Origin: Pelomyxa schiedti
Lineage: Eukaryota; Protista; Evosea
Assembly (NCBI GenBank): GCA_020536535.1
Contig: JAHLWZ010000069.1
Location: forward strand, 1-62,859
Length of the DNA stretch: 62,859 nt
Direction: 5' to 3'
How positions within the stretch are numbered: the stretch's first letter is position 1; each line of letters begins with the position of its first letter. Positions 830-60,127 of this stretch are shown here, one piece after another. The position numbers and the translations under genes were made by a program. The notes under the pieces were generated by a model. That model was not told the origin of the DNA, did no database searches, and was given only the letters and a program-made list of their open reading frames with translations.

Positions 830-3782
830 CAGGCTTGAGTTTTTGGTGTTTGAAAGTGCATTACAAACCTTATATCGGGCAGCCTCGATGAGGTGAGTTT
901 TTATGGTTCCCCAGAAATGTTCTATTCGCTTGACATTCAATAGTGCTGTGTCCATTAGCCTGGCTAAGGAGTAATTGGTAATTCCCTGGAACAATATGAA
1001 AATTTATCAGGCTTCCGCATACATACCACTGTTATATCAGATGAATCTGTCAGAGATGTTCCACTTTTCAGTGTCTGCTTAGATAACCTAACAAGTTGTT
1101 GTAGGAGCTGTTGAAGGGAGTGCGTGTCCAAGTTGACTGTGCTGTCCCATAAAGACGAAAGGGCAGAACGTATCACTGTTAGATCGTTGGGATTGTTCAT
1201 GTCCTTTGAAAGAAAGAATGTGAGATCAAACGAACAACAGTCAGGAAAAATTGCCCACTTCCAATGTGGACTTCTCAGTGACTGAAAACAGTAAATGAAT
1301 TTGTTCAAAAGTTTTCAGGACTATTCCCCAGCCGCCTTCCAAAATGTTTCCCATACAATGAGCAATATTAAGTAAGGTCTGTATTGTTCAGGGATAGTAT
1401 TGAGTCTTTTGGCAGGTACAACCTTAACGGACATGACATTTTTGGTTGTAAGCATTCCCTGATCTTGAACTTCAGGTAGGGCATTCCTTTGGGGAAATGA
1501 GTTAAGGTGCCCTTTTGATATTAAATAATGTAGTTTGTTACTTGCACAATGCAGTCAAGAATGCATCACGGGGAGTGTTGAGATGGAAGGATCCCATTGA
1601 GAAAACGAGACCTTCAAACGCTTTGAAGATCACTTGGGATACTATTTCTTCTTCATTTTTATCAAGAACTAGTGTGAGACTAGAGAGTGCGATAGGCCAC
1701 ATATCATTGGCTAGTGTTGCCAATGTCTATTGAAACGAGTCAGACCAGCTAATAAACTTAAGATACCGCAAATTTTGAGTCTGTGGGGGTAATGTTTCTT
1801 GCAATGTCATTGAGTGTAGAGCCGAGAGCAAGAATGCAACTCAGAGATACACAAACAACATAGCCACCCTTTATCAGTGGAGGGGATGTCAGTGAGTGGG
1901 CATCCAAACTGTGGTGCAACAGTCTTTAACAATATTTCAATGAAAAGAAAGGAGAAAAAAAAAGTAGAGTGAAGAAGGCCAAAAAAAAAAAAAAAGGACA
2001 AAGGGAGAACAAAATAGTGGAAAACAGAAAAATCTATGGAGGACTTGCCATTTAAACTTCGAGGCCATTGCCTCTGCGATATGAACTTCAGGCCACACTA
2101 GTTGGGGGTTCCTGATGAATTTGCCAACGCCATTGACAACATCATGAAGTAGACTGGTGTAGCCTGTTCCCCTCATGTCAAAAATCGAAAAAATTGAGCT
2201 GCAGAACTATTAGCTCTTGAAATGTGATGTGCAGTGCCACCAAACGAGTTTCTTGTCCATCAAAAAAATGCGGAAAGTTTCAAAAATAAGAACTCTCACC
2301 CAGTCCACAGTTTCCATTAAATCTAGTATCTTTAGCAATCGTATCACCAGAACTTCAGTTTCTGTCACCTGAAAGACTTAGATAGAGAGTACAAAGTGTC
2401 ATTTATACCCAAATGGAGGAAAATTGAGTGACGAACATGCAGATAACTCTCATTAAACGCACACTAAATTGGAAATCAGTGCCCAAATGCATGAAGCTGC
2501 TTATCAACAGTGGACAAACTCGGTCTGGGAGAAGCTGTCTGAATTCAGGAATCTGTAGAACGCCGTGTTGAGAGGCATGCGGGAGGTGTTTCCTCAAACC
2601 TCAGTAAACATTTGAGATCGTTGCAGTATAATTTCAAGTAGTTCAAATCCAAATGTAGGTGTGAGCTGATTGAACAACAAAAAAGACGGGGGATCCCCAG
2701 CTGATAAAGAGCATATGTCCTATGTCATTTCTCAATGAAGGAGATATGTACAGGTACTTCATCGTTTCATACCTGAACTAGAAGGTAGGCATCCTTTATA
2801 CAAGGCTGGAACGATGCTAGAATACGTGAACTTGACCTCTGAGGAGCTGCAGCAGAAGTGGGCTGGGGTAGGTGTTGGTGAGTGGTGTCTTGTGTTTGTT
2901 GGTGATTAGGTTGTGATTGTGCTTGTTGTGGAATCTGAGCAGCTCCTTTACCTGATTGGAAATTTATTTAAGTGCGTGTCAAAGAGAAGAGAATATTACT
3001 TTTAGTGTATTCCCCTACCGCTCTGGTGAGTGTTAAGTTAGGAAAATGACCAGAGAATGCTGTGGGCCAACCTATCGAATAAAAGACCAATGACCATCGG
3101 TAAGGTAGCAGATGCTGTACTCCTAACAGATTGGCCACCTCTCGCATGTAATGTAAATGATATTTCGAGTGCCTTTTTGAGATGTTGGTAATTCCACCTT
3201 TATTTTTAAGAGACCTGAGCCAAAAGAGTTCCATGCAATTGCTTATCAGTAGAAATAAGTGTAGTTAAAGCTTGCAGAACTTTAACTTGCAGCTCTTCTG
3301 AAGAGTGGTCTGTAAGTGTGCCAAAAAGTTTTAAAAATACTCCAGTGTTGTGCTACTAGTTTGTAAGAGGAAAAAACCGAGGGGGTCCACAACCTGCGAA
3401 ACTGCACATGCGGAAAAAAGTTTTTGAGTCAGAGACACAGCAATGGAAACTAGTTTCATGTTTCTGGTCTCGAACGAACCCGTTATGACCAACACAATTT
3501 CGTCACATTTGGCCATTTCTGAAAGCACATTCAAATCAATCCAGGTATGCAAATGTGATGCTATTACCATCAGTGAACCTCTCGTGTGGAAGTTTTTCCA
3601 GAACTCGCATTCTCAATAGCACTCTTTCCGCAGCCTCAAAGAAGAAAAAGCAAAAGAATACACAAGCATTTAATGGTCATTTGTTGTTGTGCTTTACTTA
3701 CGTCCTTTAGAGCAGGGTTCTTTTTCTTTGCCTCCATAGACAAAGCACGCAGTTCGCTCTGCACCAACGAAAACGGGTTCAT
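830..3782 (-). CDS. MON2: MON2 homolog (Arf-GEF-like scaffold; DCB and HUS regions), multi-exon, 3' end lost in the gap
   Basis: Starts MNPFSLVQSELRALSMEAKKKNPALKD. Later exons include SFETRNMKLVSIAVSLTQKL, QLLPDRVCPLLI, DFQFSVRLMRVI, MWPIALSSLTLVL and PRDAFLTALCK, matching the MON2 N-terminal pattern. Confidence 0.85.
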
Positions 3783-3970: not shown

Positions 3971-6243
3971 TTAACTGGAGTTGAATTCTGGGATGGGGAT
4001 TGCTAGGGCTGTCATTATGGCTTCCATGATGGCATCTGTTTTCTCAAACACCCTCAGCACACAATCGTTGTCAAACCTGATAGAGGAGTGTGAGCCTCAT
4101 GGAAAATAAAATGAAGAGCAGGGAGGTAAATACGGTGTTTTCTGGAGGTTGCAAATAACCAGCTGCCTTGCGAGTGGTGGCATGTCGCATGCGGGATGAA
4201 CGCGCATTGATGTGCCAAGAACAAGTGCGAGGTCGGCTTTCCTACTCTCGGCGAGAGCAAGTTGAGTTGTTACAACAGGCAGAGATTCACCGAAGTTTCT
4301 GGGGGATGGTAATGTGAGTCGTTTTCCAGAGGTGAATGATTGGCTCATACATGATGCTATCTATAAGGTAACCATCACAGCCAGGTTTGCTGCATAGTCT
4401 TCCTGTAGCATGGGGATCATAAGCATACAACTCGGTGTTTTTAGTGTTGCCCACATCAAACGTTCTCTGGTATTCGGTTTTGCATTTTTTGCAGTGCTCA
4501 ATGTAGCAGTTGCCTGAAACAAAAATGTTCAGGATAACTTACTGTGAGAGCAGGACAAACCGTGCAGTTCGGAAATCTTGTCAGCAGGGATTCCAGATCG
4601 GCGGTGAAGCCCATCCACATTTGTACTTACAACATACTTGATTACTCCCCTGGTGACCAACTCGGACATTGCCATGTGAGCTTTGGTAGGCTTTGCTTCC
4701 TCAAGGGTAATATCCATCTTAGCATGCTCACCCCTATCGCGCATGGTCCAGACCCCTTGTGGTCCTCGATAGTCAGGAATGCGAGCCGATGTTGAAATTC
4801 CTGCTCCGGTATAGACAACAATGTATGAGGAAGCTCGGATGAGACTTATAAGCTGCTCCATCTTGGTCTGAAAGACGGCTGGAAAAGGTAGGTTGACAAA
4901 AGGAAGTAAGGAAAAAAGTATTTACCAGGTTTATCAAAAAATTCAGTGATTTCCTCTTCGGTGGAATGACCATATCCAGTCTTACCTCCCTAAAAGACAG
5001 TTTTGTGAGAGGAAAAAGAAAATAATAAAGTAGCATACTGGGGGAGCTGCTGCAGAATCGGTGGGTGTGGTAGTGGCAGTTGGAGTGGTGGTTGTTGTGG
5101 TACTTGTTGGAGTTGGGGTAACAGGTGTAGTTTTAACTGGAGGGGTATCATCAGGTGCATTTGCATCCATTACCAATTTAGTAATGGCACCATTGGCGGT
5201 CTCGTAGTCTTCAACAGTTTTTTCAACCAGAGAGCCTGACGCCAATTGGAAGGCAAATCCTCCATTGTTAACCTTAGCAGGAATAGCGTGCACTGTAGAG
5301 CCGACAAGTATTCTGACATTTTTACAGCATTTGACCACAAAAACGCATGGAGAGGCCCAGTCAGCAGGAACAGAAACATCCACGGACAAGGAATCCTATC
5401 AAAGATGTCTATTGGAGATGAAGAAGTACAATAGGATATACCTCGAGAACAACGGTTGGCACATTGTTGTGAAGAACGAATCGAGCATCAGAGCAGCCGT
5501 GGATGTGCAGTATTCCCCTTTGCAGGCGTGCAGCAACAGTTATCATACATTGCTCGCAATGGCTAGCTGCCAGTTCCACCAACTCTCCACTGGGTAGAGA
5601 CACAACACAGTGTTTGCAGTTGTTGAACAAAAGGGCGTCAGGGAGCCTGGGTTTGATTAGAATGGGGGAAAAAAAAACAAGGACAACACACGTGCAATCA
5701 GCTATGGTAAGTTCTTTGTTCCTCTCCCTCAACACTGTAAGCTTACACCCAGACGGAGTGGTAGTAGACGGCACTGTGACTTCAGCGGCCATTGGAGGTG
5801 GCGTAGAAAACTTCGCGTCACGTGCAATATTGCCCAGGGGCCTCAAGGACTAGGGGGAGGGTGTAAAAAATCATAAACACAAAAGGAGGAGGCAAACCCT
5901 GTGCTCAATATAGCTGTCGCATTCATAGCACCAGAAGCTCATGTCGGCGAAAGACAACCCCACTGGGTGGTGTGTCTGCTCAAAGTGCCTGGCAGCGTGG
6001 CCCTTCACGTATCGGCTGCAGTTTTGTTCAAAGCAGGTTGCACAAATCCAGTTTTCGTTGGTATCACCGCACGCAGCGCACGGAGCTCCATCTTAGGTGA
6101 GGAAAACCTGGTCAGTAACTGCAAGACTTGTGCAGTGTAGTGGCTGGGAACATACATTGGATTGACTCGGGCATGGCTTCGCGACGGAAAGCCCGAGCTA
6201 CATGTGGGCAGTCTCTCTTAGGAGTAACAGCGAATCCTTGCAT
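3971..6243 (-). CDS. Class IV (SIRT6/7-like) sirtuin with N-terminal ZnF-UBP domain and central CAP_C-like beta-helix
   Basis: ZnF-UBP: FAVTPKRDCPHV...CAACGDTNENWICATCFEQNCSRYVKGHAARHFEQTHHPVGLSFADMSFWCYECDSYI. Sirtuin: EFFDKP...YTGAGISTSARIPDYRGPQGVWT, STNVDGLHRRSG, ELHGN, NFGESLP, LGTSMRVHPACDMP, ICNLQKTP. The domains join through in-frame GT-AG junctions. Confidence 0.88.
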
Positions 6244-13300: not shown

Positions 13301-16300
13301 AGGGAACTTAGTGGCGATGTGATCTGTAAAAGTGAGGCATGGTAAGTGCTACTAGTAGCATACCGAAGCTAAAGGAACTCATTTCAGTGTCATAGTTCTT
13401 GGTTAAAACTTCGTTACCAATCTTGTTGAAATCCGCCACTCTGACGTTAAACATTCTATCCTTCTCATTGTGGAAATTTTTCAAAAGAGTTTGTAGCTTC
13501 TTCACATCAGCAACACTATGGACTACCTCTCTGTTCTTGAGGTATATCTCAGATTTAGTAATCCATGAAGAAAGTTGAGCAAATTTCTCGGCGTGTGTGA
13601 GAGCGACAGTCCGCATTTTGGAGGCAAATTCCTCACGCTGGCGGTGATCATCCAGTATTTTCTTACGGGTTACAGCAAGAGCAGCAAGCTCTTCCAAGTG
13701 AGCTTTGATTGTGGCTTCGCGTTCGTCGACGGCCTTTCGTGTAGCCTCATTGTTTTCCTCAAACTCTGGCTGGCGTGTGATTGTGTGATCGAACTCATAG
13801 GAGCTATAGTCAGAGCCATGGTGGGCAGATCTGATATCATCACCAAGCTGGGTGAGTTCAACAACGTGAGTTGCTTGAGTTGTTTTGTATTCTTGTTCGT
13901 AGGCATTGAATACAGTTATCTCCGCAATTACCTCAGCCATATTGTGTATAGCATCCCAGGATTCCAGATAGTTTTTCTTTTGACTCGACCATGCTGACAG
14001 TTGCTCATACTTATCAATGTGCTGCTGATTTGTAATGCGGTATTTCTCACGTATACCCTCCCTCTTGAGGTGGTCTTTAAGAACGTTATTTTTTTCTTCT
14101 GACTCCTTTCGTAGAACTTCCCATTCACTATCCACAAAAGCGAAGCGCTCTTCTATTTTCTCAGGATGCTCAAACTTCCATTGAGAGTAGGGTGGGTTGT
14201 TATGCTCTCTTGCTATAATAACACGACCAAGTGTCTTCATTTCATCTACATTGGTCGAATTAACAGTGATCTTCTCACTTTCAAATGATTCCAGTAGACT
14301 AAGGGAAAAAATCAGCCAACAACGAAGGGAAAGAACGGTCTAAACCTAATTTGGGTCATTGCCTCAGGAACCGAGTAAATTTTTTCTCTTGCATTGAGAT
14401 AGATGTGTCCATCGGAAATCCACTTTTGAATGGCCTCGAACTTCTTTGTGTGCTCCTCAAACATCAGTCGGGTAGCTTGCTTGTATTTTTCTCTCTCAAG
14501 ATCATCCTTCAAAACGGGCATCTTTTTTTCTGAGAGCTTCCCGAGAGCGACAAACTTAGCCTCTAGTTCATGTTCCCTTGCAGAGATAGTTGTTCTATCT
14601 TCATAGATATTGGTTTCCAACTCTTCTCCGAGTTTTTTCATAGCGACAAACACTGTGTGCTGAATGTTTTCCGATTCTTTGTCGTAGGACTCGAGACGCT
14701 TGAGCTGGAACTGTGCAGCACTAACCTTTTTGTGTGTGAAAAAGAGTAAAGAAAAAAAGGTAGCGTACAGATTCAACTATTTCCTTTGTGTTCAAATACT
14801 GTTCCTTTTCCTGAATCCACTGGCACAGATTGTCATAAATAGACAAGTGTTGCTTCGCGAGCATGACCAGTTTGTTCTGCCTATTCAATTCAGCATGCAA
14901 GGCAAGAGATCGTTTTTGTTCAACTCTCTCCAATTCCTCCAGGGCTTCTTGTACATTCTGGGTAGAGAAGGTCAAAGAGCTATAGAAGGAAACACGAGAT
15001 TACTTTAAGAGTCACTCCTTCAGGAGGAATAAATTCAGGGCGTTTGTGATGGGAAAGTCGCATTGCAAGACTGTTAAAGAGTCCTTCAAGTTGAAGTTGG
15101 GCACCGAGCAGTTTGTTTTTATGTTCGGTCTTGTATCTGCAGAGGCAATACGTGAAAACTCTGACAGGAAGGGTATGCATACACGTAAAACTCTTCCAGC
15201 CGCTTGACAGCTCCAGCCATGTTGTTGTCGATAGTTTGATCGTTAAGTGTAGCTTCCACGCCTTTCAGACGAACTTTGTATTCAGCGGCAGTTGCCTTGA
15301 ACTGTTCCTTTAACTTATCGTTCTCCTCGGTCAACTTAATGAGCTTTGTTAATCGCCTTGCTGCAAGGTCGAGTTTTCGTTGTTCAGCAATACCATAATA
15401 GAACCTGAAACCGTGAAAATGCAAAACCCCTAAAGGATTACATACTCGCTGACATAGACAACCATGCCGTTTTCTCCCACAAGTTAGAAAGAAAAGACAA
15501 GTACAAAAACCTTACCATCAAGTTTGGTAACATCTGTTGCGGTGAGGAATTTCTCCAAACCCCAGTACTTGAGTGCGGCTTCCTGAGCAAGCTCGATATT
15601 CTTGACAGCATTGGCAGGAGTTAGAGTTCCGTATTCGGGCATGAGTCTTGGCCGATGTTTTGCCTAAATTCATGTTAGGAATTGGAGCTGTGCGCAGGAA
15701 AAATACTATCAAGGCACAAAGAGCCATTCCATTATGGAAGGGGGACTTAGCGGACTTCTTAAAGGAGTCGATTGGAGCCAACTCAGGGCACTACTAGAAC
15801 ATTAAAGCCTGCATCACTAAATGCAAACCATACCTTGTTATTGACCCACATCAACAGAGCTTGCCTGGCGTCCATAGTTTGGGATTCGTCCTCGGACTCG
15901 ATTTTCATGAATTTGATAATCATGGCAAACACAAGGCTCAGCACGGCATTCACGTTTCCATCCACAAGTTCCTCGGGTGAGGGTTTCAACCGGAGCTCAA
16001 CACCAAGTTGGAAACACCACTTCAAAGCATTTCCAACAGCTTCAATCTAAATCAAAGAGCTAAGGCCCACAATATATGGTTCCTCTGTGAACGTACTTGC
16101 TTTATCTTTGTTTTCACAGTTCCTGGCTTTGGAACCAACCTCTGGTCAGGGAATTTGGTCTCGGTCAATTCCTCGAGAAGCGCAAACAAGACAGTGCCCT
16201 CCTTTATTTACAGGTAAAAAAAAAATTGTTTTTTTTCCCCTGAGACTCAAAAGATTACCTTTATATCAGTGACAATATCGTTCACAACTATGTCGTGACG

Positions 16301-16466
16301 TCTCACGAGTTTTTGTTTGCACCAGCGCGTACTTTTTGTGTTTTAGGCATCACCCAATAACGACGCACAAACTGCAAACAAACAAAACAAAAAAAAATGG
16401 GAAGGGAAACGCGTACTAAAGTTTGCGCTGCAGCCCAATCCACTCTTGTTGTACTCCTGACGCCAT
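10398..16466 (-). CDS. Alpha-actinin-like protein: tandem CH domains, about 10 spectrin repeats, C-terminal EF hands
   Basis: CH1: EWIGLQRK...DIKEGTVLFALLEEL...PEELVDGNVNAVLSLVFAMI. CH2: ARQALLMWVNNK...FHNGMALCALI. Repeated W-x3-K-x2-YL spectrin helix A. C-terminus GITPQQFQEIEVNFRKFDK...EFMMCLYSLG...YDRFKDFMV...DSDTKAEILES. Confidence 0.9.
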
Positions 16467-16786
16467 TGTTTGTTGTGTGTTGTTGGCACCGCTTGTGGCG
16501 AAAAAGGCCTTTGTTTCTGTTTCTTTTTCTTTTTTTGTGTGATGTTTCAAGAGTCAAAAGACGACTTTCGCCGATCCCCGAAAAACAAAAAAGAACAAAT
16601 GTAACTGTTCTGCGGTCAGAAAACTGTTACCAAAAACAGGAGAGTGCTGCGTGGCATCCCGCAACACTGAATTCCTTCCAATCCTCAAATCCCATTTCCA
16701 CCACTTCAAATTTTCCGATTGTCTTCTATTCTCAGCCTCATAACAAACAGAACAAACAGACAAAAAAAAACAACCATCAACGCACA

Positions 16787-18265
16787 ATGAATCAACAAGC
16801 ACAATTTGTAGCACCCGGATATGCGACCAGCAACAACCTCTACTATGTGCCCGGATATACGTATTCTCCCTACACTTACGCGTCCTACTCCTTCTCGTCG
16901 CCGGCGTCTTCCTCTGTGACCCTCACTCCCGCGTCAAGTTCTTCCTCTACCTCCTCCTCATCTTCTTCGTCGTCATATATTACTGCTGCCTCCTTCGCGC
17001 CCGCTGCCTCTTCATCCACCTCTACATCGTCCCCTTCGCACTCGGCTTCCGACGCTTCCCAGGCGGTTGCGACGGCGCCGTCCGAGCTCCCGTTGATTCC
17101 TGTGGGGATTCCCGCTGCCCCCGTTGACGTCGTTCTGCCTTACAAGAAGAAGCTGTGCCTGTACTGGCTGAGAGGGTTCTGCCAGCGTGGCGAAACTTGC
17201 TCGTTTGCGCATGGTGAGTGGGACATCAGACCGGGCGGGCTGTCTCTTCCTGTTTCCTCGCTTATGAGTGTCGTGGGACCGGCACAAATGCCGGCCCTGT
17301 TGCCTGCGGTTTACAAGTTACAGCAGCAGCAGGCACTGCAAGGCTCACAGGTACAACCACAAGTACAACAGCAAGCAACGCCGCCAAAACAAGAAGATAG
17401 TTCTGCCGCAGGCACCACAGACAGTACCGACGCTAAAGACACAAGTAACAGCACAGAAAATGTCAATGACGGTACTGATGCCAATCCCCAAGTTCAGCCT
17501 CAACCGCAAACAGAACCGGAGGCTGATACTACTCAACCTGCTGCACAAATTCAATCCCAAGATCAGTCACAGTCACAGCCGCAAGCTCCCAAAACCCAAG
17601 TCCAAACACCAGAACAAATACAACAACGGCAATTTCTTCAACAGGCACAGGCACAGGCACAGGCGCAAGCACAAGCACAAGTTCAAGCTCAAACCCAACA
17701 ACAGCACCCCAAGACAAAATTATGTTTATACTGGCTACGTGGACAGTGTTTAAAAGCCGAGACTTGTACCTTTGCGCATGGCGAGGAAGAACTGGAGCCT
17801 ATTTCAACAAGTCCGTTAATACATATTTAATCTAACTATACTAAATGTAACCCAAGGCCAACCCCCAAATGCCAAAACTAAGATGTGTGTATACTGGGCA
17901 ACCTTGGGTACCTGTATTCGTGGGTCCAGATGCACATTTGCCCACAGTGAAACTGAACTTTCTGGTTCAGGTAATAAGAATATAATTTTCCTCCAATCTT
18001 ATTACCGGTAGGGGCATCATCTGGAACTGGTATTTGGCCGTTGACAACAGTCAATCCAGTGCTCCTTACTCCACAGGATTTGGTTGGTCTTACCCCAAAA
18101 GGAAGGGGTGCTGGCCGTTTATCTGGTGCCGCTCGCTACTCACCCTATCAGGTCTCACAGTATGCTTCTGCACCAATACCGGGCAGCGTTGGTAGTGGCA
18201 TTCCAGCTCCTCCCATTCCTCCATATCCGCAGCAATATTATGCTTTGCAGCAACAGTCTCTGTGA
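16787..18265 (+). CDS. CCCH zinc-finger RNA-binding protein (three C3H1 fingers, S-rich and Q-rich linkers)
   Basis: KKKLCLYWLRGFCQRGETCSFAHG, KTKLCLYWLRGQCLKAETCTFAHG and KTKMCVYWATLGTCIRGSRCTFAHS, each with a TIS11-like lead-in. Confidence 0.88.
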
Positions 18266-22560: not shown

Positions 22561-24091
22561 TTAGTTCAGCACGGGAGGGTGTGGGAAGGTGCTCCTCAAA
22601 CAGGTCCTGTAACCTATCAATTTCTTGTATGGAATTGCTTGAGGAGTCAAGTCCATCATTGATGCATACACAGTGCGGTCTATTTCTCCAAACCTAGTAC
22701 CTGGTAAAACTGAAGGAAAAGTGGTTTGGATTTTGGCATACAGAATTCCAAAATTGGGTATTTTCAGACTCTGCTGGGTGCCATTTTCCAAACATGCCAT
22801 ATACATCACTCGATTGATAGGCCCCAAACTCCTCCATGGCAACAGCGGCATGCATGAATGGTATGGCAGTGTCATTGCCATGTCTGAACTTGTGAGTGGA
22901 TGTGCTGTCAAATCTTGGCTTCCATCGAGCATACATCAAGTCCAAAATCTGTTGTTTCTTATAATTTTCAAGGTTATTAAGGTGTTTACATCTTTTCGCA
23001 TGAAATAGCACACATGACCAACGTATGGATGCTTTACAACCTTGGTGGCATCTGGGTGGTAATACCTTCAAAGACTAAGAAGATGTGTGTTTTGATGTGC
23101 GCATACGAATTTATCAGGGAATTAGAGTTTCCTACACTCCTGTGCCATATATTTTTTTCCATCTTATCGGGCATTGGTGCTCTATACCCAGGTGAGACAA
23201 AGATCTTCTGCCTCCCATTATTTGGGTCAATGAATCTAGTGTGCATCAGCAATATGGAGAATTGTACACAATGATAACATACAGATCTTTTGTAATATGA
23301 TTTGCAAGGAACATATCGTCATTTCTTTTATCAAGGGTTAATTCTTGTGAGTGTTTTGGTTTTGATTCGAGAAGCTCTCACAAATATAAAATACATGGAG
23401 CAAGGTTTGGTATTTTGTGCAAATGAGCCTCAATGGCGTTGGAATTGAAAGTTGGTAGTACTGAGGTATCTGGGAATATCTAAAATAAAAGGAGTGTGAT
23501 GGGGTCCCCAGCAAACAAGGTCATACCTCTTCATGTGTTACAATTCTAAAGCGTGGAGCGCTCAAATTTGCCCATGTTGGAACCTATGTAGATGTAAACT
23601 TAACAGGGTGAGTTTGAATACTTAAAGATGTTTGTAAACCTGTCCATTGGTTACTATAATAATATTTCTTGCCCATGGCATGAACTTCTCAATAGACCGA
23701 ATGGAGTACTTCAAAACGCCGTATTCTCTATAACCACCATCCCACTTCTTGTTGTATTTCTGCTCGGTTTTTCATTATTCTCCACAAATTTTATGACATT
23801 TTCCACAAACCTTCAGCAGTGCAGAGTGCGCCGGGTCACTGCCATTGACCCAAGTGTAAACAACGTCTACTTCCGTGCATATGTCCGGCTGTTCCGGTCC
23901 ATCAGGAATCGCCATGAACGTCTTGCTGCTCGTTGTTTTTGGCAACAATAACAAACAAAGCGTGCCAGCATCATCAGAAAAAGGAGAAAAAAACGTTCGA
24001 TTGTGGATCTCAAATACACGTACATGAACAGTATGTTGCAAGTGAAGAAAGCAACAACAAAAACCGCAACGCACGTGATCCGAACACGCAT
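22561..24091 (-). CDS. Stealth-family hexose-1-phosphate transferase (GNPTAB/CpsY-related), type II membrane protein
   Basis: N-terminal hydrophobic anchor; CR1 [12 protein letters not shown]; CR2 [13 protein letters not shown]...IIIVTNGQ...IVTHEEIFP...[19 protein letters not shown] and DDMF; CR3 HAIPYF-like HFR region. Confidence 0.88.
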
Positions 24092-24263
24092 CTAATTTGT
24101 GCTTCAAATAAAAAGATGAATCACCACAATTCAAGGCCTCAGACAAAGTCCTGAGCCCTAGGAGAACGAATCCTGCACAAATACAAAAGGACAACCCAAC
24201 ACTGTGTTAGAATTGGACTCAAGCACAGAAGTGATCAGACCGATTTCATTGTCACATCAACAA

Positions 24264-32200: not shown

Positions 32201-34841
32201 TATACATTCACTCTGAAGCCATACTCTCGTTCATACTGCTTCTCAAATGCTATCTTGAAATCTTTATCTTCTGGTTCTTTTATTGTGTGTGAAGCATCCA
32301 TTCCCTCAGTTATATGTTAAAGGAGCTGCAAAATCGGCGGTATACTTGGTAGCGTAAGTTCAAAATTCTTGTAATCTTAATATTTGAATCAGAGAATCCA
32401 AGTTTCCTGAGCCGAGAAGTGGGCTCCTCAGCAAGGAAGTTGAATCTACTGTAAATAGCATCAATGGTTTCTGGCGAGTATTTCAGGGAGGATGGTGCCT
32501 ATTTTTAAAACCTTAAAAGGCCACAGGTGAACTGACAAAGTAACCTGTGCTTCGTACACTTTGTCAGCTAGAGATAGTCCGACAGCACTCAATATACTGG
32601 CATATCTGTGGACGAACACCTTCCTTATTCCAAGAAGTCTAGCAACTGTGCAGCAGTGTTGTCCACCTGCTCCCCCAAAGCAGGCTAACACGTGATGAGC
32701 CGGATCCAGTCCACGCATCTCCGTTAAACCACGAATCGGCCGGCACATTGTTTCATTTGCAACACGAATAAAGCCCAAAGCAACTTCTTCTGGAGTCATA
32801 GATTTTCTCCCTTGGTGCTTTGTTCAGGGTACTATAAGACATTGTGCAATTAAACCTGAGTTAACAGAAAGCCATTCATTTACTTCAACTGTGATATGTT
32901 CAAAAGCAGCTCTGGTAGCTTCGCAATCCAAGGGCAGGTCATTGGAGGGGCCAAAAATTGAAGGGAAAAAGCGTGGTAAAATTCTACCCAGGAACAAGTT
33001 GGCATCTGTAATGGAAAGGTAGCCACCTTTGCGATAGCACACTGGGCCTGGATCAGCACTTAGTCCATTTCACAAGGTGATGGCCTTTGCTAACCTGGAT
33101 TTGCTCCAGACGATTCAGGGCCAGCAAGGAACAATCCAGATTTAAAGAAAAGCCGACTTCCACCACCCGCAGCTACTGTTGTTATGTCCAACTGTGGAGT
33201 CATAATACTGACACCTATACAGGATGTAATCATATTTCTGAGAGCCAGAGGATTTACCTGCTGTTACTGTCTCAATTACATGCTCCAGTTCGCCAGCAAA
33301 TCTACTAACATCTGTTGATGTACCACCCTTCACAAAATTACTGCATCCTGGGTAGGAAAATAAAAAGTACCATATCAAAACCAATCACAGGGCTCTTGAC
33401 AACACTCCATGTGGTTAGTGAATATCCAACCACACCACCTACTCAATTTCAATGAAGTTCATGAACAATGTGTTGCATACCTGCGGGACCTGAAAGAATC
33501 GATTTAAACCCATTTAACTCTGATACTGGGCACAATCCACCATCACTCATCATGAATGTCACATCAACATTCTAACTTGCGTTAAAACCCTAAAGCAAGC
33601 AGTGAAATCATACTGGAAAGTTTGAATCAAATCCTGCAGAAAAGCTTTTCACATATTCACGAATGAGAGGCGTGAGGTATGCGTCTACGCAGGCTGTTTG
33701 GCCGCGTGGAACAACTTTTACCATTGGCGCAAGTTGTGATGATAGTGACACTTGCTCAAATCCTATGCTACTGGCAATTCGGCCAACTTCCAGCTCATGA
33801 TTTGGGAACAGGTATGAATGAACTAGAACAACAGCAATCGACCGGATGCCTGTATCGTAGAGTTTCTAACTGCTTGTGAGTCGACTCTTAAAAAAGGTGA
33901 GACTCTTGTCACTTGTAAGCTCTGCCTAAGGTTATCAACATTGATTGGCTTCTCCACATGAACGAACTCTCCACTGACAGTTTGGAAGATTGTTCTTCCT
34001 AAAACCGGTTTAGCTCCCATGAATACCGAATTAATATAATACCATCTGCAGAAAATCCTTGTGGAAGGTCCTTCGCAAGAACCACCCTTTCCTCAACTTC
34101 CACTACCTCCGAATAGATCAATTCAGGCCTTACGATGTTAAGATCAAACAGACGAGGGCGAGTCTGGTTCCCTGGTGAACATGGAGTAAGGTGAAAGTGA
34201 GTTAATTTAAATTACATTTAAATGCCTTGTTAAATCAATCAATCGATTCTTTTTTTAGAGGATAGAGGGAGCATACCGATGAAGAGGAGATCAGCGAACC
34301 CTTGTGTGATGCAGAGTACAGTTGGGACACCCTTGCGCTCCAGAAGGGCGTTGGTTGCAACCTGAAGGGGTCACTCAGTTGGGTGAAGGAATAAATGAAA
34401 TGATATTTATAAGTTGAGTGATGAGTTGGCGCATAGTTGTCTGGGGGACGAGGGCGGTGGGCGTACCGTTGTTCCCATTCTTATCGAGCCGATGTTGCGC
34501 GTGGGTACAGGTTCTGACCGAGGCAGAGCTGTGCCCAATACCTTCTCGAGAACCACACGGATGCCCTCCCTTGGTGCATCGCTGTAAGAGTGGTCCTTGG
34601 ACAACAACTTGTGCACCACAACACGCTCCTCCACGGCTCCGTGCTTGTTCTCGGTCACAACCTGCTATTCATTAGAAGAAGAGCCACACCCCAAGATAAT
34701 AAGATTCAGCGGGTTTGTCGTGATGGATTATGGGTTAAGGTGTGTATGTTCAGTGTTGCCCAAAGAACAACACACAACCCTGGCAAAAACGTCAGTGAAC
34801 GTCCCACCACGATCAATGGCGAAGTGCACTTTGGTAGACAT
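29238..34841 (-). CDS. OPLAH: ATP-dependent 5-oxoprolinase (fused hydantoinase A/B)
   Basis: [74 protein letters not shown]...[45 protein letters not shown]. Confidence 0.96.
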
Positions 34842-35678: not shown

Positions 35679-38600
35679 TCACATTATTGAGCAGGAGTGA
35701 TCACGAATTGAGGCCATTGGTGTGGTAGCAAAGGGGAGAGGCTTGGGTGGAAGGAGTTTTTTCTGAAGTGCTGATTGTGACAGCAGCCTAATGGCACCCT
35801 CGTGATGAAACGGGGCTGGCGATGGGGATTGCGTGTTACTTATATCTGCATGTTCATAGCCAAGTGCTGAACATTTCCCAACGGCCTTGTTTTTGGGAAA
35901 GGATGAGATTAATGGTGCTTTGTGAGGGTTTTGCTTCTATACCTCTTGGAACGATGTGGCTCTATTGGGTAGGTCAGACTTGCATCCAACTACGAGAACT
36001 GGAATACCCAATCCCGCTAAATCCCCTCTTGGAGTGGGAGATGGAGATGCGGGTGTGCTAGGAGGGGACTGGTTTGTGTGAGAATGGAACTCTGTTAGCC
36101 ATTGCAGCGCATCTCTGAAGGAGTTTGCTTGCGTGATGTCATAAAGAAGGAGGATCCCGCCAGCCTGGTAGAAGAACCTATTAGCGAAATTTAGCGGACA
36201 CTGCTTACAGGCAAAAGAAGTGGCATACTGATCTGTTACCGGGGGTAGTGATGATCTAGTTTGCAAAGTAGATTCATACAGGTTGATTAGGATTTTCTAG
36301 AATTTTTAGTGACTAAAACAAGTGCCGTGACAAGTTACTTTTCCTAATAGCATTCTGCGTATGGCACAGGGACCTTCAGTATTCAAACATAGTCTGGAAA
36401 TGAATGTACTTTTGCCAGATCCTTAAAACACTTTCACTACGACTGAGAAACAGAAAAAGTTTACCTGGCGGTCCAACAATACATATTTTTAGATAACAGT
36501 CAGGAGATACTTCTAAAACAAATATTTGAGATGACGATACAATAGGAAATCTTTACTTCCTGGCGAGTCAGACCAGGGTAACATCCAGGTCTTGTCTATC
36601 TGTAGGGTGCAATGTTGCAAAGCACTAACAGCAGTCATAAATGTGTCCTGTTACAAATGATTTTAGAGAAACCGGAACCAATGCCGCATACTTTATTGAT
36701 TTTATGAAAGGTCCAGTACGATGGTAAATCTGCTACTTCACACACAAGATAGTTAAAATCTTTGCATACACCTCGAAGCTTAAACAATTCATGGGGTGGT
36801 AAATAAGTTACAATTCTGACTACTAAAAAGCGAGGTAATCTTGGTAGCTGCTTGAAGCATTTAACATCATACTAAAACTGAAAGAGGGCCTTACTTACAA
36901 GTGGTGGTGTTGAAGAGAAAAGGGAAAAGAGAGCTTGTAGGGTGGGATTTGTTGATGATACTGCTAATGTTACAGGTGTTTTCCCTTGCAAAGTCATCTT
37001 AAAAATAAAAGACCAGTAAGAAGTAAAATTTAGCAGCTGAAAGCTCACTCACATATGGATTTGCGCCAAATTTCAACAGTATTTCGGCAATTTGTGTGTT
37101 TTCCAAGGATATTGCTAAGAGAAGTGGGGATAAAAATTGCGCCGAAAGTGCTGGTGCCAGAGTTGGTGACGAGGTGGATGAAAGTGAGTGAATTGGTTGT
37201 GAATTAGTTTGTTGAATGCGAGAAATTGAATTTGGATTAGCATGTGCCAGTAATAGAGATTCCACTCCCACAAAATTTCCATTTTTGATTGCGTTGTGGA
37301 GGGGATGCTCCACTGCAAATCAGTGAATTTGTGTGATGCAACGAAGTCAGGTTAGTACCTTCAAAAAGAGGATTTCTGAAATCTAGAGGTATTTCAAGAA
37401 GTTTCTGTAAAAGTTTTTTATAGTGCTTCCCAGGGAGTGGACATCTGACGATCGAACTTAGAACAACACCCCCAAGCATTACATGAGTTTACCTGGTCAA
37501 ATAATGTAGGGCATTGAGTCCATTTGCGTCATAACCCTTAGTATAACAGTGCTGTTTCATCAAGAAAAGGGCTTCCTTTTTTCTTTTTTATTTTCCCCTA
37601 ATTTCCAACATTTGACATAGTTGGGCACCTTGAAATTTTGGGAGATAATAGCCACAAGAAATGGGCAGCGGCCAGAAAAGTCTATTTGGTCAATATTGGC
37701 ACTGTGGGAGGCAAGTAGTTTTAGAACATTTTTGTTGCCTGAACCACTAGCAATAGTCAGGAAAAAAAAGTACGGAGGGAACACACCTAGCACAGTGCAG
37801 CAGAGTTTGTCCGATCTCGTTTTGTGCATTTGCAGAAAAGCTATTGATAAAGGAAAGCAATTCTCGTTCAAGTTCACTTCCCTTCAGGGTGTTTGAGGCT
37901 TCTGTAGAAATTCGGGATGCAAGGCGTGTGAATTGTTGAAGTTGCTGAGGATTACGTTTTTTGGCAAAGGCAAACCAATGCATTGCACAGTCCTGAGGAA
38001 AGTATGCTCAGTTTGGGGAAAAAAAAAAAAGACCAAAACAAACCTTGCTGTAGTTTAAATATGGAAATGAGGTTGTAAATCCAGATGGTGAAGAATTAAT
38101 CGCATTGGGGTTAATATAGGTCAAGAGAGTAGTACTGCGCAGCCAACAAATAATAACAGGTGATTCCACATAGACTTTAAGGAAAACCACTTTTACAGCA
38201 GGGCAAGCTCTGGTACCCAACATTAGCTCAAGAAAGAGGTTGAAGGAAGAAACCTATCAGGAGATAATGAAAATCCACGTGCACCCTCCTTGAAGACTAC
38301 TTGCCCACTTTGCATATCAAAGGTTTGTGTGGGTAACGAGTTGAAAATGAGTGATGCACTGTGCTTAGTCATATCTTGCACACACTGTGCCTGTTTGTGC
38401 AGAATGGTAGCTGTAAAGGAGTTGGTAAGAATGGCATTAAAGAGGGATACATATTCTTTTAAATTTTTTGTAGATTTTTGTTTTCTATAGCAGAAACTCG
38501 ACCCACTATTTCTGAGGCCTCAGTTCTAGTGCTGTGAGCACTCAATTGCCGATCCAGTATCATCAATTCCTCCTGCTCAGTACAAATCTAAAACATCCAC

Positions 38601-55900: not shown

Positions 55901-58900
55901 TTCTTTGCCTATTCTCACGGCTTGTTCCATGTGCAGGTATGTCCCTTCCATTGTTAGGTGAGGTTAACTCCTAAAGTGCAGTGCTAACCCTCCAGTGGGC
56001 TTGGCCACAAGTACCTACGATATAATTGACCGCTCAGATCTTTCAGTACAAAACTTTTGTAAGACTCAGGCTTCTTCTTTTTTTTTTTTTTTCTTTTTTA
56101 AAACTTGAGGAAGATATTTCCAAAACAACATCGGTGGAAGCCCCATGGTTGAAAATAGATGTACAGCACAGTGACCCAAGCGAAACAAGCAGTGCACAGC
56201 CTGAAAAATCAAATGACTTTTCCCATGAATATGACCCAGTTTCATCTTTACTTTTCCCAGATGATCTGCGTCTACAGGTACTTGTTATATTTATACCATA
56301 TTAATATAACTTCATCTTCCAGGAAGTGTGCAACTTGTTGCAGTCCAGTTCAAGAGTTCCAATCAATGATTCCCAAGTACCCTTCCATCACATATCTGAT
56401 GAAGTCATTTTGAGATAAGGTTATTTAGGCTGAAGGTGAATCTGACCAAGGTTTCCTCCTCAAACAGCAAGTATTTCACTTCCAGTCTTTTTGTCACTTA
56501 CTTTACGCTCTGTAGAAACAATTGGAGTTAGTTCTATCTCGTACTTGTTCTCTTAGTGTATGAATACCTTAGTAGCTTTCTCTGAAGATGGTAAAAAACA
56601 CCAGGTTGGACGTGGTGCCTTTGTCCTATCTACAAGTAATTCAGCTAAAACGGAGGACACGACACTATTTCCCCCTCTCCAACTTAATGGTGTTGATCCC
56701 ACCTCCCACCAAGTAAGTGTATTTGTCTCATTTATGTGTCTCAATGCCACAAGGTAACACTTTCCACTCAACATGATGTATCATGGCCCAATTTTCACAA
56801 TGGCGTTGCATATGGACTTAAGTTCAAAAGAAGTAACTCACCCAACCTCTATTTCTGTTGATACATATCCAGGGTGTAGTCATTTCAGCAATACTAAGCT
56901 ACTTGGCACACGTCCTCACACATTAAGTGATACTCACGCAGGCTTTTTATATGGGCTTGGTAAGATTCCACTGATGGGATCTATGTTTATCTATTGCAGG
57001 GTTACAAGGAAATCTTGCCCTATCACTTGTAAGTGTATCTGAGTTTTTGAAGGGCTGCCACTACCTCACCATAATCGCCATACTGCTGGGTCTTTCTGTG
57101 TCCAAGGTTGCCTCCATTTCAGTTGATCTATCGTGACTTTACTAGATTGGTAGTATGGATAATGATGTATTTAGGGCTCTGTCACTCCACCTCCCTTTCT
57201 CCCAAGAGCATTCAACCCAGAATGTCCTTGTGCAAGCTTCAGCACTAATTGGGGTAAGACCCAACCACAACAGAAATCCACCTTTTGCTACCCCCCTTTT
57301 TTTTTGTTGTAACAAAAAAAGGTTGGATTACTCTACCTCGGGTCAGGTAACAGTATTGTGGGATCCCTGCTGCTACAACAACTCGATCAGCTCCCACCTA
57401 CAGTCCATCCAACACAGCGAGAGATGTGGCACCTTACAGCGGGTATTGTTGCAAGTTGGCTTCGATTCTTGAATGACTTAGCCAGGGATGGCATATGGAC
57501 TGGCCATGCTTGGACTTGGCAATACCCTTCCAAACACACAAAGTGAAAGTGAACATCCTCACATTAAAATACTGCGGAAAAGGCTTTCAACACAGCGTTA
57601 TAACCATGATCCGGCGAACTCTCTTGAGTGCAATATCAGTAGCAATGTAACGCAAACCTACAAGTATTGTTACCAACGAAAATGCAGGCCTCTTATTCTG
57701 GATCTGTGTTCGCTCTTGGTCTAATGTTTTTAAAAACTAACAATGTCCAAATAGCCTCATTATTGCAGGTTTGACATTTTTTCTCACTTATGCTTTTATA
57801 ATGTAGACTCGTGTCTAGGTGCAAAGCACAGTTGCACTGCAAAGTTTTCGCCCTGACCTTTTATTTATTACTGTCTTAATGCATTCTCTTATCCTTTGGG
57901 ACACTATTCAGGTAAAACATGTTTCCTTTGTGATGGCGTTTAGTCTTGATAAGGCTTCAACCACCTGGGTCAATTCTCATGTGCCAGATGGTCCCTCCCT
58001 TGTACAACCACGCCACTTCATAGTTGCGGGGCGTTGCTTGGCCCTGGCTCTTAAGTAAGTTCCATTTGCAACATGAAGATGTAAACCTGGGAAAGGTACG
58101 CCGGTACAGGACTCCAAGTAATCAAATCTCTCCTACTTTCACAACTGGAAGTGATGAACGCGGACTTTAAATCTTTTCCAAATGAGTCTCCCTTCCTGCA
58201 TAACGTTTGCCTAAATATGCTCTTAATTGTAAGAATTCCTTCTATTTATATGTGGTGATTCTATTTAGAGTTTGGCAATATTAATGGCTGGAACCGGTGA
58301 TCTCGAAACCCTGAGGCATTTGCGAATTTTTCATGCCAAGGTTGTCCTTTTATTCTCCCACTTGGAAATTCTAATGCTGGTCGTCAAGATTTCTGAAGAT
58401 GTTACTTATGGTGATCACATGGCTAGGTTGAGCTTGTCTTTCCAATGACCACCTACTGACTGTACCCAAGGCACTTAGCCCTAGGATTCCTCTTTTTGGG
58501 TGGTGGAAAGTTTAATCTCTCAACCTCTTGCCCTTCAGTTGCTGGTACACCGATACTTTTTAATCTATTGTTCAACTGACAAGTGAAGCCATTGTTTGCG
58601 CCCTTTATCCAATCTTTCCAAGCCAGCCCAACGACAACACCTACCACCTTCAGGCTCTTCGGTACGAACTGTTTTTTCTCATTTCAACTGAAGTTTTTTT
58701 TAAGGCATTTATATGTTATTGCATCAGAGTCACGATGCATTATCCCGTGTGATGTGGAAACTAAGCGAGTCTGTTCAGCCATGGTTCGTGTTACTCTGAA
58801 GCCATGTCATCTCAATGACAATCAAGGTATTTTCTCAAAGGGTATTTCATTACCAACTCTCCTGCTCCCCTTCACAGATTCTACTGTCTTGTTGCGTGGA

Positions 58901-60021
58901 CCCTGCCATCTTCCAGAATTCTCACTCATCACCAAGATTGATGTCACATCGTCTGTCATATATTTTTTTTTATTTTTACTAACTTGTCGTAAAGAGAAGG
59001 CTACTGGGGGCATTGTCTATGCCCCTCACCCCAAGAACCTGAAGGTTATAAGCGGTTCGGTTTGATTGATATAGGAGACGGCCTCCTTCTTTACCTAAAA
59101 AGGCACGCCGGAATGATCGCGGCGGAGCCTCCTAACAGTTTTTCCCATATATTCACATCGAGAATTAATTTCACCTTTAGAATATTCCAGTCTTACATTG
59201 CACGCCCTTGATGCAGATAAGGAAGCCTCTTGGCTTAAGTACTCCACTCTTCTTCATTCTTGCTTTCACATATGCCCCAGGTCTGCATCAGGAATGGATA
59301 TTTGCATTCGAAAATTCATTTCAGTATGCGTTAAGTCGCAGACTAAGACTCATAGTGGTAGGAGTGGTATATTCACTGTTACCAACAAGTAATAGCGCAG
59401 TAATCTTGTTAGATGTCATTCGCAAGTTGATGACTACCTCTGTACATGATCAAAGATTGCACCTTCTAAATTTCTATGCACACTTGTGGGTTTGTGTGAA
59501 CAATCCCACGACAACAACACCGCAAGATTTGCTTGAAATCTCATTCATACATTTTCTCAGCAAAGCTTACCCCATTCTCCTAGGCATGCTTTCTTTCCTT
59601 GGTCTTAGTCAAACATACCATAACTTTCTACCGAACAGGCACTTTGGACAAAGGATTTTTACGGTGGGCCTATTCGGCACTCCAGACCAGCTTGCCCCTA
59701 GAACGAAGCAGCTTCGAAGCCTACATTTCCGGCGTCAGTACCAGCCACGCCCCAGCCAGCGACCTGCGGCTCTCCCAGTTCCTAGCACTTCACAACGCCC
59801 CTCCACTTTCCGTTCTGCGTAGGATTCACCAAGTCCTCACCACCACTGCACCCCCACCTTCAACACAACAAATTCCATCACCATCACCACCAACATCACA
59901 TCATCAGCCTATCTTGACGGCCGTCACCACGGCACTCCCCAAGACACTCGTGCTTATGTCAGAGTTCCCCAACCTCGACGCCGAGCTGCTCGCTGAGCTG
60001 TGCCAGATCTACTGCACCTAA
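52943..60021 (+). CDS. ANAPC1: Anaphase-promoting complex subunit 1
   Basis: LLFPDDLRLQEV, HAGFLYGLGLQG, VQASALIGVGLLY, LGLMFLKTNN, FRPDLLF, AGRCLALALKYAGT, MAGTGDL, YGDHMA, LGFLFLGGG, DNTYHLQALRHLYV. Confidence 0.93.
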
Positions 60022-60127
60022 CGGTTCGCGCACATTTCGCCAAATCAAAGATGCCGACTTGAGAGCACATTTACTTTTTTTTCCGACACAGAAGGAAGTG
60101 GTTTGATTTGGTGTGTGGGTGACGACG

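What the first reader, a model, noticed from the sequence alone, without database searches (positions are those of the whole stretch)
3971..6243. Three-domain fusion: HDAC6-type ZnF-UBP + CAP_C-like beta-helix + SIRT6-class sirtuin
Seen: one reading frame is kept across the GT-AG junctions (IQ|YGAPC, EHR|SLRP, VLE|DSL, PP|GGK, DKP|AVF). It links a ZnF-UBP, a Cys-periodic segment (LFNNCKHCVVSL...HNNVPTVVLEDSLSVDVSV...KCCKNVRILV...FQLASGSLVEKTV) that tracks the C-terminal domain of cyclase-associated protein (CAP), and a class IV sirtuin core. Known: ZnF-UBP binds free ubiquitin C-termini in HDAC6; CAP_C binds G-actin; in mammals HDAC6 acts on the CAP/acetyl-actin complex; the amoebozoan ZnF-UBP sirtuins I know are SIRT2-like and have no CAP_C. 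Inference: an NAD-dependent, ubiquitin-sensing actin deacylase, a convergent HDAC6 analogue.
Basis: partly seen in the sequence, partly recalled or inferred. Interest (0 to 1): 0.78.

Follow-up and report, generated by a model that had tools for sequence, protein, structure and literature searches.

The report
Ubiquitin-tethered sirtuin with decayed actin domain
This amoeba gene makes one spliced message for a protein joining a ubiquitin-binding-type zinc finger, a domain predicted to fold like the actin-binding part of cyclase-associated protein but lacking its key actin-contact residues, and a sirtuin enzyme, so it is likely a deacylase steered by free ubiquitin rather than by actin.

Summary
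Ten exons and nine GT-AG introns give 605 aa, and one RNA contig spans all nine junctions. The protein is deposited as a Pelomyxa schiedti sirtuin. It has an intact HDAC6-type ZnF-UBP, an intact class IV sirtuin, and a middle domain that models as a CAP-type CARP beta-helix (pLDDT 94; Z 17.1 to CAP1). The actin inference is weak for this protein. CAP1's K365/N367/D372, needed for ADP-actin binding, read E168/V170/S175. Three of four family-conserved surface residues are gone, and so is the thymosin/WH2-like motif seen in 22 of 42 ZnF-less CARP-sirtuins. The parts are also not rare: 86 of the 120 closest relatives carry ZnF-UBP, and CAP-C plus class IV sirtuin is in print as animal SIR8 (function unknown). 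The three-domain form was found only in Pelomyxa, Mastigella and Mastigamoeba. Best reading: a ubiquitin-recruited NAD-dependent deacylase that works like HDAC6, derived from a likely actin-tethered CARP-WH2 sirtuin, with the beta-helix kept as a spacer or dimer module. It is a new variant of a known kind. The stronger actin-deacylase candidates are its WH2-CARP relatives, including Pelomyxa's own paralogue.

The parts
3971..6243 (-). Whole gene: 10 exons, 9 GT-AG introns, 605-aa protein (P0001)
5808..6216 (-). HDAC6-type ZnF-UBP, aa 10-108 (exons 1-3); 12 Cys/His plus W44, R56, Y57, W83, Y85, Y90 kept in 5 of 5 three-domain proteins
   Evidence: Pfam E 6.5e-18; HDAC6 ZnF chains 81-85.5 bits; residues
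6009..6014 (-). R56-Y57, equivalent to the HDAC6 gatekeepers R1155/Y1156 that close on ubiquitin's C-terminal diglycine
   Evidence: ungapped alignment to HDAC6 ZnF chains; PMC3268394 section 19
5216..5750 (-). CAP-type CARP beta-helix, aa 128-256, plus predicted C-terminal beta-hairpin, aa 261-275 (exons 3-5); hydrophobic core kept, conserved outer face lost
5562..5585 (-). E168-L-V170-E171-L-A-A-S175: the strand carrying K365/N367/D372 in CAP1 and the near-invariant K (profile position 46) of the CARP-like family
4987..5164 (-). Thr/Pro-rich low-complexity linker, aa 293-335 (17 T and 10 P of 43), where relatives carry a helix and a thymosin/WH2-like motif
3980..4974 (-). Class IV sirtuin core, aa 340-603 (exons 6-10): GAGIS, DYRGP.GVWT, TNVDGLH, HG, four Cys, FGE, GTS, NLQ
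   Evidence: SIRT6 208.5 bits, SIRT7 181.4, other sirtuins at most 102.9
4562..4564 (-). H461, aligned to SIRT6 H133 (catalytic role recalled)
   Evidence: alignment; kept in 5 of 5

Best explanation
The gene encodes one 605-aa protein that is likely an NAD-dependent lysine deacylase recruited through its zinc finger to free ubiquitin C-termini, with the beta-helix likely kept as a spacer or dimer module rather than as an actin-binding domain. Shown: one spliced transcript; all the ZnF and sirtuin functional residues checked are intact; the middle domain lacks the CAP1 actin-contact residues, three of four family-conserved surface residues and the WH2-like motif. Predicted: the CAP-type fold (high-confidence model). 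Inferred: (1) the ZnF pocket closes on the Gly-Gly end of unanchored ubiquitin or chains, as in HDAC6, and so brings the enzyme to stress or aggregate complexes in the cytosol; (2) the class IV core removes acetyl or longer acyl groups there, substrate unknown; (3) origin in Archamoebae from a CARP-WH2-sirtuin, a form still present in Pelomyxa as P0062, by gain of the ZnF and loss of the WH2, after which the CARP surface drifted; (4) the retained C-terminal hairpin may still allow a strand-swapped dimer, which would give two ZnFs, paralleling the 11 of 120 relatives with tandem ZnFs (untested).
For: Single transcript. ZnF: HDAC6 is the closest solved structure; 18 of 18 checked residues kept in 5 of 5 three-domain proteins (mechanism PMC3268394). 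Sirtuin: H461 and four Cys kept in 5 of 5. CARP face: among 160 other CARP-like rows, K46 is kept in 153 of 157, E69 in 147 of 159, T86 in 146 of 158 and D90 in 146 of 158. All four are kept in 33 of 42 ZnF-less CARP-sirtuins and 94 of 118 non-sirtuin rows. P0001 keeps 1 of 4, the other four three-domain proteins 0 of 4, yet P0001 keeps 30 of 31 core hydrophobic positions. The outer-face residues also differ among the five. Identity to Mastigella P0262: ZnF 65%, CARP 34%, sirtuin 70%; to Mastigamoeba P0011: 48, 20, 51%. ZnF and WH2-like motif never occur together: 0 of 86 ZnF proteins against 27 of 34 ZnF-less ones in the top 120. Sirtuin trees join the five three-domain proteins with Pelomyxa P0062 (CARP-WH2-sirtuin) and fragment P0046 (SH-aLRT 95; 92 with P0100 also inside).
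Against: No activity, binding or localisation was measured. The domain has been kept whole and foldable in three genera, so it does something; a rewired actin contact is not excluded. The family rows were selected with a profile in which 14 of 20 seed rows were ZnF-less CARP-sirtuins from outside the three-domain group, which may inflate the apparent conservation. The top-120 set is enriched for ZnF because the query has one. Beta-helices tolerate low identity, so 34% alone does not prove relaxed selection. Both trees are quick searches (SH-aLRT only; the careful searches did not finish), contain no reference SIRT6, SIRT7 or SIR8, and leave the backbone largely open. T441 replaces the usual Q of SQN (SIRT6 Q113), with unknown effect on catalysis; T was counted in 84 of 120 relatives.
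Confidence: 0.55

Rival explanations
1. One reading: the CARP still binds G-actin, perhaps through a rewired surface, and the protein is a ubiquitin-gated actin deacylase, doing in one chain what CAP plus HDAC6 do in mammals.
For: The fold is closest to CAP's actin-binding CARP, ahead of TBCC and RP2. The nearest ZnF-less relative in the trees, P0062, carries CARP plus a thymosin/WH2-like motif, so actin association is the likely ancestral state. The domain is kept in three genera. HDAC6 deacetylates CAP-bound actin.
Against: K365/N367/D372 read E168/V170/S175, with a charge reversal; Y351 reads L153 and Y418 reads S223. No WH2-like motif in any of the 5 three-domain proteins. No free C-terminal tail. 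The outer face is not conserved even among the five.
Confidence: 0.2
2. A nuclear, SIRT6/7-like chromatin deacylase whose ZnF reads free ubiquitin or a nucleosome feature, with the CARP as a passenger.
For: The closest solved enzymes are SIRT6 and SIRT7. The Acanthamoeba class IV sirtuin AcSir2, which carries YEATS, is mainly nuclear (PMC7376869, passages).
Against: The chain ends two residues after the region aligned to SIRT6 (aa 603 of 605), so it has no long C-terminal tail. The ZnF is far closer to HDAC6 (E 1e-19) than to USP49 (2e-12) or USP16 (3e-5). Relatives carry cytoskeletal-type modules.
Confidence: 0.12
3. The CARP has been repurposed to bind a new partner (for example tubulin, a small GTPase, or the protein's own sirtuin domain), and that partner is the substrate or an allosteric control.
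For: The same fold binds Arl3 and tubulin complexes in RP2 and TBCC (entries listed). The domain is kept intact, and Pelomyxa and Mastigella share Cys-rich segments (34-46% identity).
Against: No outer-face position is conserved across all five three-domain proteins. TBCC and RP2 score far lower by profile (E 0.15-0.54 against 1e-12 to 6e-15 for CAP).
Confidence: 0.13

Closest known systems
SIR8 class IV sirtuins of sponges and cnidarians (Gold and Sinclair 2022, PMC9486876)
   Same: Class IV sirtuin with a CAP-C domain upstream of the Sir2 domain (six such proteins in its Table S1); function unknown.
   Different: No zf-UBP is listed for any sirtuin in Table S1 (0 hits in the supplement). The paper dates SIR8 to around the animal/choanoflagellate split, whereas CARP-sirtuins occur here in Amoebozoa and in Willaertia. 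Orthology could not be tested.
HDAC6
   Same: Deacylase joined to a ZnF-UBP of the same type, with the gatekeeper Arg-Tyr kept; HDAC6 acts on CAP-bound acetyl-actin.
   Different: The catalytic domain is an NAD-dependent sirtuin, not a zinc HDAC. The ZnF is N-terminal. The ZnF itself is homologous to HDAC6's; only the pairing with a deacylase would be convergent.
Cyclase-associated protein (CAP/Srv2), CARP domain
   Same: Same predicted beta-helix (Z 17.1, rmsd 1.7 A, 125 residues), with a following beta-hairpin.
   Different: About 16% identity; below the Pfam cut-off; actin-contact residues, WH2 and free C-terminal tail absent; no other CAP domain detected.
Human SIRT6 / SIRT7
   Same: Class IV core, GVWT motif, His and Cys residues aligned.
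   Different: NFGE for DWED, T for Q113, Y in DYRG for F, no C-terminal tail, and two extra N-terminal domains.
Dictyostelium Sir2A and Entamoeba EhSir2a (ZnF-UBP plus class I sirtuin; recalled, not confirmed by any search)
   Same: ZnF-UBP fused N-terminally to a sirtuin in Amoebozoa.
   Different: Class I core and no CARP. PMC6475656 (passages) gives Sir2A as SIRT1-like and spread through the cell, but does not mention the zinc finger.

Membership tests
Class IV sirtuin | Closest to SIRT6/SIRT7; GVWT-type motif; catalytic His and four Cys | tested here: met
   SIRT6 208.5 bits, SIRT7 181.4, others at most 102.9; GVWT, H461, C469/472/502/507
Class IV sirtuin | NAD-dependent deacylase activity | not testable with these tools
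   residues intact; no assay
SIRT6 orthologue | SQN and DWED motifs; C-terminal tail | tested here: not met
   STN, NFGE, chain ends at aa 605
SIRT6 orthologue | Groups with SIRT6 in a tree | not tested
   no reference SIRT6/7 sequence was in the trees
SIR8 (Gold and Sinclair 2022) | CAP-C domain upstream of a class IV Sir2 domain | tested here: met
   below the Pfam cut-off in this protein
SIR8 (Gold and Sinclair 2022) | SIR8-specific motif of about 9 aa | not testable with these tools
   Fig. S3 letters are a picture and are not held
SIR8 (Gold and Sinclair 2022) | Groups with animal SIR8 in a tree | not testable with these tools
   no sequence named as animal SIR8 appeared in any call
HDAC6-type ZnF-UBP domain | Three-zinc Cys/His set and aromatic pocket with Arg-Tyr gate | tested here: met
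   assignment of the 12 Cys/His to three zinc sites is recalled
HDAC6 (class IIb HDAC) | Zinc-dependent HDAC catalytic domains | tested here: not met
   Pfam finds only SIR2, zf-UBP and weak CAP_C; it works like HDAC6 at most
CAP/Srv2 | CARP beta-helix fold | tested here: met
CAP/Srv2 | ADP-actin contact residues K365/N367/D372, Y351/Y353, Y418 | tested here: not met
   E168/V170/S175, L153/N155, S223
CAP/Srv2 | Adjacent WH2 and free C-terminal tail | tested here: not met
   no WH2-like match; domain is internal
CAP/Srv2 | Strand-swapped CARP homodimer | not tested
   hairpin present in the monomer model; the dimer was not scored
TBCC / RP2 GAP domains | Closer to TBCC/RP2 than to CAP | tested here: not met
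   profile E 0.15-0.54 against 1e-12 or better for CAP; Z 13.4 and 11.5 against 17.1
TBCC / RP2 GAP domains | Arginine finger | not tested
   no residue-level alignment to RP2 was printed

The most novel reading that the evidence does not exclude
A widespread, uncharacterised class IV sirtuin subfamily, probably including animal SIR8 and much older than animals, carries a thymosin/WH2 motif plus a CARP, the same two modules as CAP's actin-recharging half, and is a dedicated G-actin deacylase. The Archamoebae three-domain form keeps actin binding through a rewired CARP surface and adds a ubiquitin gate, making a one-chain, NAD-dependent counterpart of HDAC6 acting on CAP/acetyl-actin.
Probability: 0.2. 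Interest if true: 0.78.

Novelty: new variant of a known kind. Interest (0 to 1): 0.47.

Why it matters
Class IV sirtuins are known mainly as nuclear enzymes. This gene exposes a protist subfamily with interchangeable address modules: ZnF-UBP, thymosin/WH2-like motif and CARP, in at least 13 arrangements among 120 relatives. If ubiquitin recruitment is confirmed, the HDAC6 design of deacylase plus free-ubiquitin reader was also built on an NAD-dependent core. The WH2-CARP relatives give a concrete, testable function for the unexplained SIR8 family and a candidate enzyme for actin lysine deacylation. If orthologous, they would also push SIR8's origin well before animals. Pelomyxa holds both forms (P0001 and P0002 against P0062), which allows a clean side-by-side test. 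The three-domain protein itself looks like a lineage-specific derivative, so it is of moderate interest alone.

Tried and rejected
Artefactual fusion of two or three genes: rejected by the single contig and by the same order in P0002, P0262, P0011 and P0045. Chance Cys-periodic sequence: rejected by shuffles and the model. Retention of the in-frame 45-nt intron 3: the joint is spliced in 3 of 4 runs. Complex prediction of two CARP copies with a stand-in actin from a public metagenome contig gave no answer (score 0.00, alignments not used, controls not folded); it is no evidence either way. Single-sequence AlphaFold2 of the whole protein failed (pLDDT 33) and was not used. The third homologue search with the domain alignment was crowded out (4 hits among 7990 candidates) and says nothing about range. 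The first search found only the protein itself among 530 candidates. No new three-domain protein was among the 141 new best hits of the representative search, but only 150 of 2039 hits were listed. Exon 4 alone found no CAP structure. No whole genome was held, so the full Pelomyxa sirtuin, CAP and HDAC6 sets were not counted. The wide VIA search was not run. Careful trees did not finish; 11 of 73 rows were dropped from the second tree for having under 200 aa of sirtuin. Literature: no paper held sirtuin + ZnF-UBP + Dictyostelium or sirtuin + CARP domain + WH2 + actin, and none held 4 of the 5 class IV architecture terms. Sirtuin + zf-UBP gave one unrelated paper. Sirtuin + CAP_C listed 20 of 96 papers, none relevant by title, and the SIR8 paper was not among them, so these searches are leaky. 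Greiss and Gartner 2009 was not held. Earlier scan findings: none by words or by sequence.

Full report
Gene model. The reading frame runs on the minus strand from ATG 6243 to the stop ending at 3971, through ten exons and nine GT-AG introns of 45-64 nt, and gives 605 aa. Four RNA runs of one sample hold the stretch. One 1945-nt contig skips all nine introns and runs from just upstream of the ATG to 3941; the other runs show 8, 8 and 5 of the joints. These are contigs from one study and may not be independent of the annotation, but spliced joints show an RNA origin. The protein is deposited as 'silent information regulator family protein [Pelomyxa schiedti]' and matches my model exactly.

Zinc finger. 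Pfam zf-UBP E 6.5e-18. The closest solved structures are HDAC6 ZnF-UBPs (E about 1e-19 on exon 2), ahead of USP49 (2e-12) and USP16 (3e-5), with an ungapped alignment. R56-Y57 correspond to R1155-Y1156, which close over ubiquitin's unanchored Gly-Gly end (PMC3268394, section 19 read). Twelve Cys/His and W44, R56, Y57, W83, Y85, Y90 are kept in all five three-domain proteins. Binding of free ubiquitin is a strong inference, not a measurement.

Sirtuin. SIRT6 scores 208.5 bits, SIRT7 181.4, other sirtuins at most 102.9. H461 aligns to SIRT6 H133, and four Cys are kept. It differs from SIRT6 in NFGE for DWED, T441 for Q113, and no C-terminal tail. It is class IV; orthology to SIRT6 is not shown.

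Middle domain, fold. Pfam CAP_C is only E 0.03. ESM Atlas features give 0.94 to CAP_C clusters. A profile from 13 CAP_C-positive sirtuins, without the three-domain forms, scores the region at 33.4 bits against 5.3 at best in 1000 shuffles. A 20-row profile of the domain hits CAP CARPs at E 6e-15 to 9e-13 and RP2/TBCC only at 0.15-0.54. AlphaFold2 with 83 rows gives pLDDT 94.4 and pTM 0.89. Foldseek ranks CAP1 first, and VIA-align gives Z 17.1, rmsd 1.7 A over 125 residues, against best TBCC 13.4 and RP2 11.5.

Middle domain, function. In mouse CAP1, K365A/N367A/D372A abolishes ADP-actin binding, the domain works as a dimer, and its free C-terminal tail drives nucleotide exchange (PMC5951797, passages with Table 1). 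Mapped through the printed 6fm2 alignment and counted from conserved cysteines, these positions are E168, V170 and S175; Y351, Y353 and Y418 are L153, N155 and S223. A search of 1.84 billion representatives found 2039 relatives of the domain at E<=0.001, of which the best 150 were listed. Among 160 rows outside the three-domain group, K46, E69, T86 and D90 (profile numbering) are kept in 153 of 157, 147 of 159, 146 of 158 and 146 of 158. By coil periodicity they lie on the face that carries Y351 and D372 in CAP1 (my inference). P0001 keeps one of the four and the other four three-domain proteins none, while P0001 keeps 30 of 31 core hydrophobic positions. The REG-GY motif after the helix is in 30 of 42 ZnF-less CARP-sirtuins and 0 of 5 three-domain ones; the alignment of that C-terminal part is less sure. 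The domain diverges faster than its neighbours (34% against 65% and 70% to Mastigella; 20% against 48% and 51% to Mastigamoeba). Against this reading: the seed was weighted to ZnF-less forms; the family itself only partly keeps CAP's actin residues (K365 in 21 of 42, acidic at D372 in 30 of 42, N367 mostly replaced); and the domain has been retained whole.

Family context. Architectures of the 120 best of 416 relatives, typed with local profiles (Z = ZnF, C = CARP, W = thymosin/WH2-like, S = sirtuin): Z-S 43, S-Z 27, W-S 11, C-W-S 9, W-S-C 6, Z-C-S 5, Z-Z-S 5, S-Z-Z 5, S 4, C-S 2, and one each of Z-S-Z, C-C-W-S and S-C. The class IV G.WT motif is in 115 of 120. Named ZnF-sirtuins come from Physarum, Filamoeba, Leptophrys, Trimastix, Hemimastix and Balamuthia. 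Named CARP-sirtuins come from Flabellula, Balamuthia, Pyxidicula, Willaertia and Pelomyxa itself. An Atlas cluster of 68 has SIR2 in 100% and CAP_C in 24%. The W motif was found by a pattern and a profile built from its own hits, so the count is partly circular; Pfam Thymosin passes its cut-off in P0092 (25.6 bits) and gives weaker hits in P0069, P0071 and P0116. W is in 22 of 42 ZnF-less CARP-sirtuins, several of the rest being fragments, and never occurs with Z. Z-C-S was seen only in Pelomyxa (2), Mastigella (1) and Mastigamoeba (2). Quick trees of the sirtuin core join these with Pelomyxa P0062 (C-W-S) and fragment P0046 at SH-aLRT 95 (92, with P0100 also inside). This fits a gain of Z and loss of W in Archamoebae, but the direction is inferred, not tested.

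Prior knowledge. CAP-C upstream of a class IV sirtuin is published as SIR8 of sponges and cnidarians, function unknown (PMC9486876; passages; supplement searched and part 1 of 4 read). Its Table S1 lists no zf-UBP. Its motif figure is not held, so membership could not be tested. HDAC6 acting on CAP/acetyl-actin is in bioRxiv 10.1101/509133 (passages). Amoebozoan class IV sirtuins studied so far are AcSir2, nuclear and with YEATS (PMC7376869, passages), and an expanded Acanthamoeba sir6 set with no domain analysis in the passages seen (PMC7468528). PMC6475656, PMC3484402 and bioRxiv 10.1101/2021.11.30.470311 (passages) contain no UBP term; I did not see the supplements of these, and domain tables there may bear on novelty. 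PMC8887013 (passages) contains no 'sirtuin'. ZnF-UBP on Dictyostelium and Entamoeba class I sirtuins is recalled only. I found no paper on the three-domain form, on class IV ZnF-UBP sirtuins or on the WH2-like motif, but the SIR8 paper was not among the 20 of 96 listed, so absence from these searches is weak.

Verdict. The architecture is real and the three-way combination appears undescribed. Each pairwise fusion is common in databases, and one is in print. The best mechanism is a ubiquitin-recruited, NAD-dependent deacylase with a decommissioned CARP (0.55). Rivals: ubiquitin-gated actin deacylase (0.20), new CARP partner (0.13), chromatin enzyme (0.12). The better actin-deacylase candidates are the WH2-CARP relatives. 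Novelty: new variant of a known kind; interest 0.47.

Noticed in passing
P0062, P0069, P0092, P0104, P0119, P0154 and other relatives: Many protist class IV sirtuins carry a thymosin/WH2-like motif next to the sirtuin core, with or without a CARP in either order (C-W-S, W-S-C, W-S). I found no paper describing this; they are good candidates for actin-bound deacylases and may be pre-animal relatives of SIR8.
   Followed up: partly
P0122-P0261: A large uncharacterised CARP-like family, distinct from CAP, with near-invariant K46, E69, T86, D90, Q143, R160 and G164. It occurs alone or fused to TPR, PDZ, SEC-C, FKBP or nitrilase domains. Its REG-GY motif sits where CAP's nucleotide-exchange tail lies.
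   Followed up: partly
window 4622-4624 (T441) and 84 of 120 relatives: The conserved Gln of the sirtuin SQN motif is Thr in most of this subfamily, including all 24 CARP-bearing members of the top 120; a possible marker or specificity change.
   Followed up: partly
P0002 and P0062: Pelomyxa has a second three-domain paralogue (50% identity) and a CARP-WH2 paralogue whose CARP appears split by a Thr/Pro-rich insertion after its first coils.
   Followed up: partly
window about 2400-3782, minus strand: The next gene downstream starts 189 nt after the stop; its exons match Mon2/Sec7/BIG1 DCB and HUS domains. No link to the sirtuin is evident.
   Followed up: partly
window 13311-14339(-), 16361-17827(+), 22697-24206(-), 32464-32823(-), 35940-36296(-), 58580-59062(+), 60022-60567(+): Other Pfam hits in 70 of 90 long ORFs scanned: spectrin repeat, CCCH zinc finger, Stealth CR1/CR3, hydantoinase/oxoprolinase, Ras family, APC1, C2.
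   Followed up: no
window 5513 and 6004: One RNA contig (run X2) differs from the DNA at two exonic positions; allele or assembly error.
   Followed up: no
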